64,000 nucleotides of DNA, from NCBI GenBank assembly GCA_964016885.1, contig OZ024740.1, positions 304,916,001 through 304,980,000 of the forward strand, written 5' to 3'. The stretch's first letter is position 1, and every line of letters starts with the position of its first letter. The stretch comes from Eledone cirrhosa (taxonomy: Eukaryota). The notes below the pieces were generated by a model that was not told the origin of the DNA, ran no database searches, and saw only the letters and a list, made by a program, of their open reading frames with translations. The translations under genes were made by a program, and so were the position numbers. This document shows, piece after piece, positions 15,005-57,162 of this stretch.

Positions 15005-16755
<1,751 letters not shown>

Positions 16756-16757
<2 letters not shown>

Positions 16758-18223
16758 GCGCAGAGGGTTCTATAGAAATAGTGGACAGCTTCCGTTACCT
16801 GGGTGACAAAATCAGCAGTGGGGGAGGGTGCTCTGAAAGTACAGTAGCTAGAGTCAGAACTGGATGGAAAAAGTTCAGAGAGCTTATACCACTATTAGCC
16901 GCTAAAGGGTTCTCCCTAAAAATGAAAGGCAGGTTGTATGATGCCTGCATACGAACAGCAATGTTGCACTCAATTTTGTGTCAGAAATGCAAAGTATGGG
17001 TGCATAAAAGATGTAGTGGGATCACAGGTAAGCTAACTAAGAACATAGATTTCACATGTGGCCGGTGCTCTGGTGCAATAAGTAGCAGCAAGTGCCCACA
17101 AAATACTAACTCTTTCAACTGCGCAGAGGGCTCTATAGAAATAGTGGACAGCTTCCGTTACCTGGGTGACAAAATCAGTAGTGGGGGAGGGTGCTCTGAA
17201 AGTACAGTAGCTAGAGTCAGAACTGGATTGAAAAAGTTCAGAGATTTTATACCACTATTAGCCGCTAAAGGGTTCTCCCTAAAAATGAAAGGCAGGTTGT
17301 ATGATGCCTGCATACGAACAGCAATGTTGCATGGCAGTGAGACCTGGGCATTGTGTGCAGAGGATATACGCAGACTAGAGAGGAACGAAGCTTGCATGCT
17401 CCGCTGGATGTGTAATAGTAATATACGTGAACGGCAAAGCATAAACGAACTAAGGAAAAAATTAGAAATAAGAGGGATCAGATGTTGTTTACTCGAGAGA
17501 AGGCTACGTTGGTATGGACACGTGATGCGCATGAAAGACGACAGCTGTATAACAAAGTGCAGGGCAATAAAGATAGATGGTAGCCACGGAGTAGGCAGAC
17601 CCAGGAAAACCTGGGACGAGCTGATAAATTCCGACCTCACACACTTACACCTCTCCAAGACAATGTCACTGGACCGAGACCTTTGGCGGTACTCAGTAAC
17701 AGAGAAGACCCGCCTCACCTAAATACAAAGTAAAACCTACTAGTCAGTAGGCATCTCTAACAAAATACACCTCCGTCCCACCCCATCCACACCGCCCCCT
17801 TCAATGCAAAGTTATGTTGGTGCCACAACATCCAGGCCGAAACAAACGAGATCGTGTAGGTGTCACGACAAAAAAACACACAGTCCACGCTGTAATGTGA
17901 CTGTATAGGCAACACGGTAAAAACCTCCCAGTCCCACACTGTAAATGTGGTTGGTGTTAGGAAGGGCATCCAGCTGTAGAAAACACGCCAGACAGTCCAC
18001 TCTGTAATGTGGCCGTGTAGGCAACACGGTAAAAACCTCCCAGCCCCACACTGTAAATGTGGTTGGTGTTAGGAAGGGCATCCAGCTGTAGAAAACCCGC
18101 CAGACAGTCCTATGCGAGCAAGACAACCACTCTTGCCTCAAGTGGGAAAAGCCCCGTCCAAACCCATGCAAGCGTGGAACAGGGACGTTAAACAATGATG
18201 ATGATGATGATGATGATGATGAT
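16756..18223 (+). mobile_element. 5'-truncated RTE-clade LINE (PHD-containing family) with 3' UTR and (GAT)n tail
   Basis: FRYLGD, MLHGSETW, RRLRWYGHVMR and GRPRKTW motifs; stop at 17722. The 3' UTR has tandem cccacactgtaaatgtgg units. Confidence 0.92.
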
Positions 18224-28309: not shown

Positions 28310-29868
28310 CATCATCATCTTCGTTTAACAACCATCTTCCATGCTAGCATGGGTTAGATGGGAGTTGTCCCACTTGAGGCAAGGTTGGTCGGGTGACCGT
28401 GTCTCGTTCATATACGACTATCTGGCAGGTTTTCTACAGCTGGATGCCCTTCCTAACACCAACCACATTTACAGTGTGGAACTGGGAACTTTTTACCGTG
28501 TTACCTACACAACCACATTACAGCGTGGACTGTGTTTTTTTTGTCGTGACACCTACACGATCTTGATCTCGATCTCATTATCTCATTTATTTGGACTGGA
28601 TATTGTGGTACCAACTTTACAGAGAGAGGGTGGTGTTAGTGGGAGTGGGAGGATAGGGTAGGGGTAGTGGATTGGGGTGTATATTTGGTTAAGAGGTACC
28701 TACTGACTAGGTTTCGCTTTGTACGTAGGCAAGGCGGGTCTTCTGTATTACTGCGTAGTGCCAAAGATCTCGGTCCAGTGACATTGTCTTGGAGAGGTGT
28801 AAGGTCAGAATTTATCAAATCGTCCCAGGTTTTTCTGGGTCTACCTACTCTGTAACTACCAACAATTTTGATCGCCCTGCACTTTTTTATACAGCTATCG
28901 TCTTTCATGCTCATCACGTGACCATACCAGTGGTCTTCTCTCAAGTAAACAGCATCTGATCCCTCTTATTCCTAATTTCTCACTTAGTTTATTTATGCTT
29001 TGCCATTCACGTATATTACTATTACACATCCAACGGAGCATGCAAGCTTCGTTCCTCTCCAGTCTGTGCAGCTCCTCTGCACACAATGCCCATGTCTCAC
29101 TGCCATGTAGTATTGCTGTTCGTATACAAGCATCATACAATCTGCCTTTCATTTTTAGAGAGAAACCTTTTGTGGCCAACAGCGGTATAAGCTCTCTGAA
29201 CTTTTTCCATCCCGTTCTGACTCTGGCTACTGTACTTTCAGAGCACCCTCCACCACTGCTGATTTTGTCACCCAAGTAACGGAAAGTGTCTACTATTTCT
29301 ATAGAACCATCTGGGCTATAGAAGGAGCTAGTATCCTGTGGGCACTTGCTACTTATTGCACCTGAGCATCGGCCACATATAAAATCTACATTCTTAGATA
29401 GTTTACCTGTGATCCCACTACATCTTTTATGTACCCATAGTTTGCATTTTGGACATAAAATGGAGTTTCTGCCTACTCCTTTCCTACACACTGAGCATGG
29501 CCATTTCCCTGAGGGCACCTGTACCCTATTTTTCTTTCTACAAACTAGAACTTTAGTCTTAGACAAGTTAACTTTAAGGCCTTTTGATTCTAGGCCATGC
29601 TTCCATGTTTGGAATTTCTTCTCTAGTTCAGCCATAGATTCAGCTATGAGAGTTAGATCATCTGCGTATATATAGTTCCCATGAGCAGCCGGTCTTAAAC
29701 TCCTCTGTTATAACCTGAAGGGCAATAATAAATAGGAGGGGGCTAAGGACAGAGCCTTGATGAACACCAACTTTTACACTAAATTCTTCACAATATCCAT
29801 TGTTAATTCTAACCTTACTGACTGTTTCTTTATACATAGCTTGTATTGCTCTCACAAGCCATTCATCT
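28310..29868 (-). mobile_element. 5'-truncated RTE LINE with RT motifs and PHD-like finger
   Basis: VGVHQGSVLSPLLF, YADDL (frameshifted), CSVC...CPKC..WVHKRC...CGRC, FRYLGD and HGSETW motifs, plus the 3' UTR and tail. Confidence 0.92.
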
Positions 29869-31451: not shown

Positions 31452-31540
31452 TTATTCCTGATGAGATTCATGAAAATTAATTAATTAATTAATCAAAATT
31501 ATCGATTAAACTTTTTTCATTAATGAAACACATAGAATAA
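31452..31540 (+). ncRNA. decayed type I hammerhead ribozyme
   Basis: ttattc-CTGATGA-gattcatgaaaa...ttttcattaat-GAAA-CACATA-gaataa, with a perfect 6-bp stem I and a long stem II. CACATA looks like CpG-decayed CGCGTA. Confidence 0.6.
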
Positions 31541-37679: not shown

Positions 37680-40347
37680 GTCTGCCTTTCATAGGTTATA
37701 GATTCCATACACTGGTGGTTTTTTCCCTGTTTTATTGATAGCGCACTGTATATCTCTCTCTAGTGTGTTACCTTTTCAACATATTGTATTTTAAAGAGCT
37801 CAGGATTTCTTCTCCTTTGAGCACATTATTTACAGGGAATGGCGAGGGTCTATGGCTCTGTTAATTTATTATGATATATATCATCTTTAAAAGAATAGAG
37901 GTGTAACACACAAGTTATGATATATTGGTAAATGGAAAAGATAATGCTGAGAAATTGTTCACAGTGAAAAATAGTTTAATTAGGAATAAGTGAGAATTAG
38001 TAATAGTATTGGTTAGTGTTCAGTTTTGGTTTTAAGTTTTACCGGTTGCGCATTTCTAATGCTTTTCAAAAATAATTTTGAGATAGAGCGTCCGTGATGT
38101 TTGCTCTAATCTGATTAGTTTTGGAAATTCTACCTGTTTTTATGTGAAAAAAGTGGCTCCAGCGGTATTAAAATAAGTTTCGCGCCAATTCGTGTTGCAA
38201 AAATTCTTGTGGTCAAAACAAAATAAGTCTTTCAAAACAAATATGTGTGTGTGTAGTAGTAGCAGTAAAGAGGTTCGTTGTTGTGATAATGGTCAGCAGG
38301 GATGTATGTGCGAACCGCAGCCTGTTGACAGTTCAAATGCCTATTAAGACAAGTGTGTGTGTGTAGCAGAGTAATTCGTGGTAGAGGGATGGTCAGTAGG
38401 AATGTGTCTGTAAGTGTGTGGGGGATATTTTAACATGTTAAAAGATATTTTTCAGCTCTTGTCTCATACGGAGAAGTGTGTGTGTGTATATGTCTCTTTG
38501 TATGTTAATGTACGCATGTGTGTTTGTATATATGTGTGTGTGTGGGTGGACCAGTATTTATTTTTGTGATACTGGTAAAATGGTGTACATTATTCGATAT
38601 TTTCAGTAAAAACGATTCTCTCAATAGAACATCAAAAACCTTAATAAAAGGTGTGAAATGATATATAGTATTGGCATAATACCAAGGTGTGTGTGAGTGT
38701 GTCCAGATTGTACGTACTGCAAGGGGAATCCATTAGGCCTTGCCGTATTGGAATACTTGTGTACAAATATGTATGTACCCATCAGTGTGCAATGCATGTG
38801 TGCGTTTATGTATGTATGTGTGTGTCGGCACGTTTATATCTATAGACATCAAAAGGTATGCAAATTTGTGTATATTTGTGTTGCACCATAGAACATGTGT
38901 GTTTACGTATGTCATTGTGTTTATATGTGGATAGAGATGTATGCTGATGTAGGTATGTATGCTGACGTGTGTATGTTGTGGGTTCGTCTTAGGGAGAAGT
39001 GTTTAGACGGGGTCCGTATTTGTTAATAAAGTAAGATTCCTTGCTGATGCGCTGGGTGTGGGTGGCATTATCTTTAAATTTGTAGAGGGGAAAGATTCTG
39101 AAGTTGAGATGATTTTGGGCGGCACAGGTATCAATGTGTTCACTCAGTGGTATTTTCTTGTATTCCCGTATTTTAATTTGGGATCTATGGACAGTCATGC
39201 GTTGGCGGAGGCTGTTTTTGGTCTGGCCTATGTATTGTTCTCGACAACCTGAGCAAGTTAATACATATATTAGATTTTCTGATGCGCATGTGAAATTGTG
39301 TTTTACTATAAAACGTTGTCCTTCTTTGAAATAGAATTCCGAACCCTCTATTAGGTTGATGCATATGCCATAGTTGGGTCTATCGCATTTTTTTACTGTG
39401 GGTTTTGTTGTTGTGGTTGGCAATACTTTGGCATGTGTTAGGATGTTTTTCATTGACTTAGATTGTCTTTTGCTCTTTATGATATCGTGTGTTCGTAGGA
39501 TTTGGTTCATTCTATGGTCCTTTTTCAACACAGGGATGTTCTGGAGGATGGTGTCAAAGGCCTCATTGTTGAGGGGGTTGTGTGTGGAGATGTATGGAAG
39601 AGCTTTTAGTTTCGGTTGATTTACTTTAGGCTGTCTAAGGTCCTGGGTACTGAGTTTTAGGGCACGTTGAATTCCATTGTCAATTAGTGATGAAGGGTAG
39701 TCCCTGACTATGAGTGTGTCCTTTAGTTCTTGTAGCCGTAAGTAGCAGGTGTTTTTATTGGAGACTATAGTACAGATTCTCTTGGCTAAGTTGTAGGGAC
39801 TATTAATTTTAACGTGTCTAGGGTGGCAAGAGTTGAAAGGAAGATATTGCTTGGAGTCTGTGGGCTTCGCACACACATCCCTGCTGACCATTATCACAAC
39901 AATGAACCTCTTTACTACTACTACACACACACACACACACATATTTGTTTTGAAAGACTTATTTTTCAGTGACTTCTCAATCAGCCGACACAAACCTACA
40001 TTTGACACAAAATCAATTTTTAACATTCACATGACCTCTACCGACCAATCAAAATTGTTTTGCCCACAAGAATTTTTGCAACACGAATTGGCGCGAAACT
40101 TATTTTAATACCACTGGAGCCACTTTTTTCACATAAAAACAGGTAGAATTTCCAAAACTAATCAGATTAGAGCAAACATCACGGACGCTCTATCTCAAAA
40201 TTATTTTTGAAAAGCATTAGAAATGCGCAACCGGTAAAACTTAAAACCAAAACTGAATACTAACCAATACTATTACTAATTCTCACTTATTCCTAATTAA
40301 ACTATTTTTCACTGTGAACAATTTCTCAGCATTTTCTTTTCCGTTTA

Positions 40348-40355
<8 letters not shown>
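37680..40355 (-). mobile_element. Penelope-like element with inverted terminal duplication
   Basis: GIY-YIG coding segment at 38989-39865. 37921-38314 is inverted at 39866-40355. Flanked by (TA)n. Confidence 0.85.
38989..39865 (-). CDS. PLE RT thumb plus GIY-YIG endonuclease (partial, open frame)
   Basis: KPTDSKQYLPFNSCHP, NLIYVLTCSGCREQYIGQT, RQRMTVHR and KESYFINKY.P.LN motifs. Confidence 0.9.
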
Positions 40356-54859: not shown

Positions 54860-56145
<1,286 letters not shown>

Positions 56146-56409
56146 TAGAGTATATGTTCCTACACGCACAAGGCGCTTAGGGACACATGTATTGTCCAAC
56201 CATATGCCAATGTGGTTCAAAATTTGGTCGTTCTGACTGCTGCTAGTTATAGCGGAAGCAGACTGACCTCCCTGCCTCTGCCTCTATCTTTACACACGGC
56301 ACTTGAAAGAATTGCTTCCACTTCATTTACTCTCATCTCGGGAACAATTTTGAATAGCGCCAGTTCGTAATTTGAACTCGGGAATTTTATATTCTCCAAG
56401 TGAAAAGAT

Positions 56410-56493
56410 CCTTCTGACGAGAGTTTTTCTTTGCAACGGATGCCGTATGGACTGTCCGTTTATTTTTGAGACTCGAAACCGATTCGGTAAAGG
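56410..56493 (+). ncRNA. intact type I hammerhead ribozyme
   Basis: cctt-CTGACGA-gagtttt..[aacgga/tccgtt]..gagactc-GAAA-ccg-att-cgg-TA-aagg. All core nucleotides and stems I, II and III are present. Predicted cleavage after GUA at 56489. Confidence 0.85.
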
Positions 56494-56589
56494 TAACCAT
56501 AGTAAGTAAAGTTAATTTTTTAAAATTTATTTTGAAACTTTTTCTTATTTGCTAAACCTTGATTATATATAAATATATATATATATAAA

Positions 56590-57162
56590 TATAATAACTA
56601 GAAATTGATTAACATATAAATATACATGAATAATCACAGGAGATAATTTTTACAAGCGTGTAACCACGCATAGCTAGTTTGGGTAATAATTAAATTTATA
56701 CCTTTAAGTATGATTAACCTTCCTTGTATATATCCCATTAAAGAAATATATTTCACCAATTAATCAGATGGTAAGTCACGGAAAGTGGATATTATTGGAT
56801 TGTCAACAAGGAAGAATAATGTCCAGCTATCCATGCTCACACAACGAGTTCAAATCCTCATCTGGCCGCTATCATGTGTTGTGTCTACACATCACAGCAG
56901 CTTCGTTTCAGTTGTTGGCAATCCAATAATATCCAATCTTCCTTGTTGACAATCCAATAATATCCACTTTCCGTGACTTACCATCTGATCAATTGGTGAA
57001 ATATATTTCTTTAATGGGATATATACAAGGAAGGTTAATCATACTTAAAGGTATAAATTTAATTATTACCCAAACTAGCTATGCGTGGTTACACGCTTGT
57101 AAAAATTATCTCCTGTGATTATTCATGTATATTTATATGTTAATCAATTTCTAGTTATTATA
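56590..57162. repeat. long near-perfect inverted repeat (about 225-bp arms, about 120-bp spacer)
   Basis: 56590-56815 is the reverse complement of 56937-57162, with one mismatch seen. Confidence 0.92.

What the first reader, a model, noticed from the sequence alone, without database searches (positions are those of the whole stretch)
56145..56565. Intact, probably active hammerhead ribozyme in a 420-bp non-coding insert inside (TA)n
Seen: a complete core (CUGACGA, GAAA, GUA), 4-bp stem I, 7-bp stem II with a G-C base and a distal hairpin, and a real 4-bp stem III, so it should fold as a monomer unlike minimal PLE hammerheads. There is no ORF nearby. Together with the motifs at 5.3, 5.5, 9.7, 30.0 and 31.5 kb, this suggests diverse TA-targeting ribozyme-bearing retroelements at roughly one per 10 kb.
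Basis: partly seen in the sequence, partly recalled or inferred. Interest (0 to 1): 0.75.

Follow-up and report, generated by a model that had tools for sequence, protein, structure and literature searches.

The report
Hydra-Penelope-dependent hammerhead retrozyme copy
The hammerhead-ribozyme pattern is real and sits in a cut-short copy of a 483-base non-coding repeat present well over a thousand times in this animal genome, which likely spreads by borrowing the enzymes of Penelope-type jumping genes; whether this copy's RNA cuts itself is untested.

Summary
The type I hammerhead at 56410-56493 is real (0 of 40 shuffles match it; stems covary across subfamilies). The insert is not one element read straight through: it is an inverted 79-bp arm joined to a 343-bp arm of a ~483-bp non-coding unit (1,521 exact hits of its 3' end). 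This is an animal non-LTR retrozyme / non-autonomous Penelope-like element, a known kind. Copies end at two fixed TA-joined sites 113 nt apart; of 85 inverted pairs, 66 use one site each, none use the same site twice, 19 are unclassifiable. A small hairpin just past the first site is shared with this genome's young Hydra-clade Penelope elements, the likely driver. This copy has one ribozyme and lacks the hairpin, so it is probably a dead end. Cleavage, circles and expression are untested. This scan noted the same two-armed pattern and hairpin earlier in other families of this genome.

The parts
54862..56141 (.). (TA)n-type array, left target flank
   Evidence: (period 14/18 AT array)
56142..56220 (-). 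Inverted arm: unit positions 40-118, outer end at site B (tail end) joined to (TA)n; stops inside the tail hairpin, so the hairpin is incomplete
   Evidence: 99% to unit
56219..56220 (.). Inversion junction, 2-nt overlap between the arms
56219..56566 (+). Forward arm: unit positions 143-483 plus ATTAT, outer end at site A joined to (TA)n; 1.3-1.9% from nearest copies, two differences from its subfamily majority
56377..56400 (+). Conserved hairpin just upstream of the ribozyme; this copy has a private G-to-A change at 56398
56410..56493 (+). Type I hammerhead motif; predicted cleavage after 56489; long stem II arm; palindromic stem III 56478-56488
56567..56593 (.). Right (TA)n flank

Best explanation
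This is a truncated, inverted copy of a ~483-base non-coding repeat with a hammerhead motif (a non-LTR retrozyme) that is likely copied into (TA)n repeats by the enzyme of Hydra-clade Penelope-like retrotransposons. Shown: unit length, copy number, two fixed ends (A and B, 113 nt apart, both ATTAT then TA repeat), A/B pairing of inverted arms, arms longer than one unit, covarying ribozyme, hairpin shared with Hydra tails, absence of a joined ORF. Inferred: (1) tandem copies are transcribed and two hammerheads, pairing through the stem III palindrome, cut out a monomer that likely circularises; (2) the Penelope protein binds the tail hairpin, nicks both strands of (TA)n and starts reverse transcription at A on one strand and at B on the other; (3) the two cDNAs join at their far ends, giving inverted two-armed inserts, or only the A-primed cDNA completes, giving a simple truncated copy; (4) running round the circle gives arms of up to about 9 units. 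The window copy is one such A/B product with a single ribozyme and is probably a dead end.
For: Family: 1,521 exact hits of the 3' end 20-mer, 1,095 of a stem III 19-mer, 2,244 of a tail 24-mer, 0 in each reversed control. Ends: 114 of 124 A ends and 52 of 54 B ends are followed by TA repeat against 11% background. Inverted 5'-joined pairs: 42 AB of 48, 9 of 17 in an older subfamily and 15 of 20 in a set picked by the tail; no AA or BB, although 81 of 95 single arms end at A. 155 of 191 arms cross the cleavage site, 30 at least twice; L231 has about 8.8 units with 1 difference among 7 full units plus an inverted B arm. Copies within a locus share subfamily haplotype (median discord 0.04 against 0.38 between loci); tandem turns share private variants at 0.59/kb against 0.025/kb between loci. 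Ribozyme: 6 of 24 pairs change on both sides, 96% of cells paired, 0 of 500 shuffles reach the covariation score; core mismatch 3.9% against 9.8% elsewhere in copies not chosen by the ribozyme; circular monomer folds with z -4.5 and holds the hammerhead junction. Driver: young Hydra family with intact 719-aa frames, RWK, DKT and CxCX5C motifs, its own long-armed hammerhead, A/B ends in 6 of 6 two-orientation loci among 20 fetched, and the motif GYTCTG..CATWGARC 8-10 nt past site A in both; 0 hits in 1.6 Mb reversed control and 0 of 20 loci of a second Penelope family. Literature: two RT start sites define the tail and both strands are cut and extended (PMC11167929, parts 1-2 read).
Against: No RNA data: cleavage, circles and expression unseen. 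A Penelope hammerhead was dispensable for insertion in vitro and uncut RNA was the main template (PMC11167929); 8 of 9 Xenopus retrozyme dimers did not cleave (preprint). Arms of one locus shared 0 private variants in 9.1 kb and 4 of 53 inverted comparisons were discordant, L036 clearly mosaic, so one RNA for both arms is not shown; same-period subfamilies would also give concordance. The shared hairpin motif was defined after seeing these families, is 14 nt, and also turned up in 4 of 40 Neptune-type loci (one is the sister repeat; the other three were not placed) and 1 of 30 GIY-YIG loci. A Neptune/Nematis-type family also ends in ATTAT then TA in 10 of 10 loci. No longer homology between unit and Hydra ends. 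Covariation rows were hand-picked (20 of 187) and related.
Confidence: 0.62

Rival explanations
1. Same non-autonomous Penelope-dependent element, but the template is an uncut linear multimer from tandem source loci; the ribozyme only makes RNA ends or limits read-through, and long arrays grow afterwards by unequal exchange or slippage.
For: Hammerhead mutants did not affect insertion in vitro (PMC11167929); arm ends do not mark the cleavage site (10 of 147 5' ends within 14 nt of it); 15 of 102 loci not picked by best BLAST score have two or more ribozymes in one arm and could serve as sources.
Against: A multimer offers several A sites, yet no AA inversion was seen in 85 pairs; tandem turns share private variants; truncation would shorten linear sources each round, yet young arms reach 8.8 near-identical units.
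Confidence: 0.22
2. The driver is a different Penelope clade (for example the Neptune/Nematis-type family at window 5.4-8.4 kb), the hairpin likeness to Hydra being ancestry or chance.
For: That family is young and abundant (25,604 candidates) and ends in ATTAT then TA exactly as the unit does; the Hydra site A reads differently.
Against: Its tail lacks the hairpin motif and its hammerhead is short-armed; Hydra shares hairpin position, long stem II, CUGACGA core and the A/B rule.
Confidence: 0.1
3. The unit is only the terminal repeat (pLTR) of an autonomous Penelope element and all sampled copies are 5'-truncated ends.
For: Most Penelope copies are short truncated ends; only about 200 of several thousand loci were read.
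Against: Upstream of one unit lies another unit, up to 9 times; none of 95 free 5' ends runs into a Penelope ORF or a shared unique flank; unit ORF at most 83 aa. The protein queries were Neptune-type, so a Hydra ORF could be missed there, though one search found no unit homology beside Hydra ORFs.
Confidence: 0.05
4. One reading: a stand-alone monomeric ribozyme with a role at this locus.
For: Core intact; monomer fold is within 0.1 kcal/mol of the minimum for the 100-nt fragment, so cleavage of a short transcript is quite possible.
Against: It is a recent repeat copy 1-2% from its sisters; only 57 of 83 copies keep the core and 41 keep core plus stems, as expected of neutral decay after insertion; palindrome conserved.
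Confidence: 0.03

Closest known systems
Metazoan non-LTR retrozymes (Cervera and de la Pena 2020, PMC7229834, parts 2-3 of 6 read; Li, Clavereau and Pollet 2026, bioRxiv 10.64898/2026.07.22.740005, parts 1-3 of 5 read)
   Same: Non-coding tandem unit of a few hundred bases, one type I hammerhead per unit, low GC, no LTR features, dispersed monomers to multimers, stable predicted circle, proposed dependence on Penelope-like elements.
   Different: Unit slightly above the 150-450 bp range of the 2020 paper (within the 51-972 bp of the preprint); long stem II arm; strict TA targeting; two fixed ends and inverted arms, which the parts I read do not describe for retrozymes; RNA forms not shown here.
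Hydra-clade EN+ Penelope-like elements, e.g. Hydra-1_Obim (Craig et al. 2021, PMC8557442; passages, section 11 and supplement rows seen)
   Same: (TA)n targeting, sense hammerhead near the 3' end with near-palindromic stem III, partial tandems, inverted 5'-truncated arm, tail at one end; hairpin motif shared with this genome's Hydra family.
   Different: No ORF; tail 113 nt against the 30-40 bp described; no extended sequence homology to the Hydra family fetched.
Penelope tail and two-site initiation (Frangieh et al. 2024, PMC11167929; Arkhipova et al. 2013, PMC3846280, passages)
   Same: Two start sites bound the tail; tail on one of the inverted repeats.
   Different: In the anole element both strands used the same start sites and the sites were not homologous to the target; here the two sites are used one per arm and each carries TA microhomology.
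Minimal dimer-acting PLE hammerheads (Cervera and de la Pena 2014, PMC4209133, passages)
   Same: Palindromic helix III and loop 3; an older subfamily has the 2-bp form.
   Different: The window subfamily has grown the palindrome to 11 nt, allowing a weak 4-bp monomer hairpin as well.

Membership tests
Type I hammerhead ribozyme | Conserved core with three helices, helix I open | tested here: met
Type I hammerhead ribozyme | Compensatory changes in helices | tested here: met
   2 pairs in stem I, 3 in stem II, 1 in the distal helix
Type I hammerhead ribozyme | Mg-dependent self-cleavage | not testable with these tools
   needs in vitro assay
Type I hammerhead ribozyme | Loop 1-loop 2 tertiary contact of canonical forms | not tested
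   stem II carries a large internal loop instead of a short terminal loop; no structure work done
Non-LTR retrozyme | Non-coding tandem unit with a type I hammerhead in each unit | tested here: met
   (family); the window copy itself is 0.87 unit
Non-LTR retrozyme | No LTR/PBS/PPT organisation, no own ORF | tested here: met
   PBS/PPT not scanned separately
Non-LTR retrozyme | Expressed as linear and circular monomer RNA | not testable with these tools
   no RNA holder listed
Non-autonomous Penelope-like element | Partial tandems, inverted 5'-truncated arm, tail at one end | tested here: met
Non-autonomous Penelope-like element | Shared cis sequence with an autonomous partner | tested here: inconclusive
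   14-nt bipartite hairpin motif at the same place as in Hydra tails, but no longer homology
Autonomous EN+ Penelope-like element | RT plus GIY-YIG ORF between the repeats | tested here: not met
Dimer-acting PLE-type hammerhead | Palindromic helix III/loop 3 | tested here: met
   160 of 187 copies; six subfamily variants

The most novel reading that the evidence does not exclude
A retrozyme lineage parasitises Hydra-clade Penelope enzymes through a small portable hairpin, and a two-headed enzyme complex copies one circular RNA from two different fixed start sites, one per target strand, many times round; the genome then records a named retrozyme-driver pair and the rolling-circle step that published work only proposes.
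Probability: 0.4. Interest if true: 0.65.

Novelty: new member of a known kind. Interest (0 to 1): 0.4.

Why it matters
As a single ribozyme it is ordinary: thousands of such motifs sit in Penelope-derived repeats of invertebrate genomes. The family-level pattern is more useful. How animal retrozymes are mobilised and what the Penelope hammerhead is for remain open; here a candidate driver with intact frames, a minimal candidate cis signal, two mapped start sites and a strict one-site-per-arm rule give direct predictions for an existing in vitro Penelope assay. The stem III series (8, 10 and 11 nt, always self-complementary) is good evolutionary evidence that these ribozymes act in pairs.

Tried and rejected
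Rfam scan: no hammerhead model, only microsatellite-driven miRNA hits. Folding of the short fragment: no better than shuffles (z -0.5 to +0.4). Expression: no RNA holder listed; contigs of two runs of one sample only confirm the repeat and its variants. Classical L1 twin priming rejected as the full account: A-arm ends are spread over the unit and arms often overlap by hundreds of bases. Fold-back of one cDNA rejected: the B arm of the window copy is not contained in the A arm. 'Nearest other locus' test is biased (minimum over many) and was replaced by the haplotype test. RNA-editing scar: A>G 4.44 against T>C 4.27 per 1,000, no asymmetry. I first took the Neptune-type element at 5.4-8.4 kb as driver; earlier notes pointed to Hydra and favour that. 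A pattern from the published Hydra-1_Obim hammerhead found 0 hits. GIY-YIG Pfam search gave mostly Neptune/Nematis-type loci with no hammerhead called downstream. One fold (L041) is invalid because its core is mutated and was ignored. Dropped before counts: 8 duplicate loci and arms under 25-30 bp; 3'-joined pairs such as L131 and L136 were not counted as inversions. Paper searches found no description of a cephalopod retrozyme or of the one-site-per-arm count; the preprint's supplements were closed and most subscription papers are not searched.

Full report
Observation. It is the only window hit at 4/4/4 pairs and no shuffle of 40 gave one. Rfam misses it, probably because of the long stem II arm (inference). 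The fragment alone folds no better than shuffles.

The insert is a repeat copy. A DNA search of the 3.0-Gb host genome gave 2,886 candidates and showed that bases 1-75 of the insert match other copies on the opposite strand. Exact patterns give 1,521 (3' end), 1,095 (stem III) and 2,244 (tail) hits with 0 in reversed controls. The unit is 482-487 bp. In unit coordinates from L019 the ribozyme cuts at 411, and copies end at site A (483 plus ATTAT) or site B (118, also ATTAT) before running into TA repeat. The window copy is an inverted arm 118 to 40 (56142-56220) joined over 2 nt to a forward arm 143 to A (56219-56566). It is 1.3-1.9% from its nearest sisters and differs at two places from their majority. 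The host is probably an octopus; this is an inference from the Hydra-1_Obim likeness and earlier notes, not a test.

Architecture. Of 132 loci, 48 5'-joined inverted pairs gave 42 AB, 0 AA, 0 BB and 6 with an end off both sites; 81 of 95 single arms end at A. An older subfamily about 72% alike gave 9 AB of 17, and loci chosen by the tail gave 15 AB of 20, again no AA or BB. A tail on one of the inverted repeats is already described for Penelope elements (PMC3846280, passages; PMC8557442, passages), and two reverse-transcription start sites were shown to bound the tail in vitro (PMC11167929); the count and the 113-nt length are what this family adds. Arms cross the cleavage site in 155 of 191 cases and 58 exceed one unit; L231 holds about 8.8 units, 7 full ones differing at one base. 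So the template was a circle or an uncut multimer. Within-locus copies share subfamily haplotypes (median discord 0.043 for 48 tandem and 0.045 for 53 inverted comparisons, 0.385 for 2,385 between-locus pairs). Tandem turns shared 5 private variants in 8.5 kb, arms 0 in 9.1 kb, and L036 is mosaic, so one template is supported for turns and not shown for arms.

The ribozyme. In copies not chosen by the ribozyme, core positions mismatch at 3.9% against 9.8% outside, and none of 66 subfamily-diagnostic sites falls in the core or stem III. On 20 hand-picked rows of 187, six pairs change on both sides (related rows, so the shuffle counts are not probabilities). Individual copies decay: 57 of 83 keep the core. 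Stem III occurs as ACCGCGGU, ACCGCGCGGU, ACCGUACGGU, ACCGAUCGGU, ACCGAUUCGGU and ACCGAAUCGGU, all self-complementary. That is the feature of dimer-acting hammerheads (PMC4209133). For this copy the hairpin gives -2.0 and the homoduplex -14.3 kcal/mol, and the monomer fold has probability 0.08 (100 nt) or 0.002 (221 nt). Monomer cleavage remains possible; 'unlike PLE hammerheads' is wrong.

The driver. No free 5' end of 95 runs into a Penelope ORF or a shared flank. Three young autonomous families were seen: a Neptune/Nematis-type one in the window at 5.4-8.4 kb, a second at 37.9-40.35 kb, and, after earlier scan notes pointed there, a Hydra-clade family with 719-aa frames and the RWK, DKT and CxCX5C motifs (definition). 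No tree was built. The first family shares the ATTAT-TA end (10 of 10 loci). The Hydra family shares more: a long-armed CUGACGA hammerhead, A/B ends in 6 of 6 two-orientation loci, and GYTCTG..CATWGARC just past site A. The motif is in 143 of 209 unit loci (40 were picked by it, 8 are duplicates), 16 of 20 Hydra loci (some hits from other repeats in the flanks), 4 of 40 Neptune-type loci, 0 of 20 of the second family and 0 in the reversed control. It was defined after the fact. A 659-bp sister retrozyme at window 9452-10259 has the same hairpin and a short segment after site B.

Verdict. A real hammerhead in a probably dead-end copy of a new family of a known kind, the animal non-LTR retrozymes (PMC7229834; preprint). 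The mechanism I favour, dimer cleavage, a circle, and two-site priming by Hydra protein, is inferred at each step; an uncut multimer template is the main rival and has in vitro support. Earlier notes of this scan report the same two-armed pattern and hairpin for other families of this genome; they are leads, and I tested both here. Interest 0.4.

Noticed in passing
window 9452-10259 (-): Copy of a 659-bp sister retrozyme (1.2 units, 93-95%), hammerhead at 9800 with palindromic stem III; shares the tail hairpin and a post-B segment with the 483-bp unit; 1,331 pattern hits genome-wide.
   Followed up: partly
window 5385-8363 (-): 5'-truncated Neptune/Nematis-type Penelope element (RT, CX4CxxC linker, GIY-YIG, 1.6-kb 3' UTR); young family; its 5.5-kb hammerhead-like motif has almost no stem I.
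   Followed up: partly
window 37926-40350 (-): Second Penelope-type element with an inverted arm and a tail of about 50 bp on the other arm; very young family with many intact 784-aa frames; no hammerhead called in it.
   Followed up: partly
window 56591-57161: 571-bp near-palindrome (arms 88% alike) in the adjoining TA run; another high-copy TA-associated family; no hammerhead called.
   Followed up: partly
window 5169-5380 (+): Short end of another repeat family with a hammerhead at 5281 (8-pair stem I counting G-U); the same family's end appears in L174 and L334 flanks.
   Followed up: no
window 31452-31535 (+): Degenerate hammerhead relic with a perfect 6-bp stem I.
   Followed up: no
window 16460-17719 and 28898-29707: Fragments with PHD finger, the second with a reverse-transcriptase C-terminal part; probably one non-LTR family.
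   Followed up: no
L231:2252-6687: Youngest subfamily: about 8.8 near-identical 483-bp units plus a short inverted B arm; best material for cleavage and circle assays.
   Followed up: partly
L036:1492-2028: Mosaic insert whose B arm switches between two subfamily haplotypes, suggesting template switching between RNAs.
   Followed up: partly
L179:2354-2447: More distant long-armed hammerhead with palindromic stem III, found by the covariance model (35.6 bits).
   Followed up: no
L034, L041, L052 distal loop of stem II: Older subfamilies close the distal hairpin with GNRA tetraloops; the window subfamily has GUAU.
   Followed up: no
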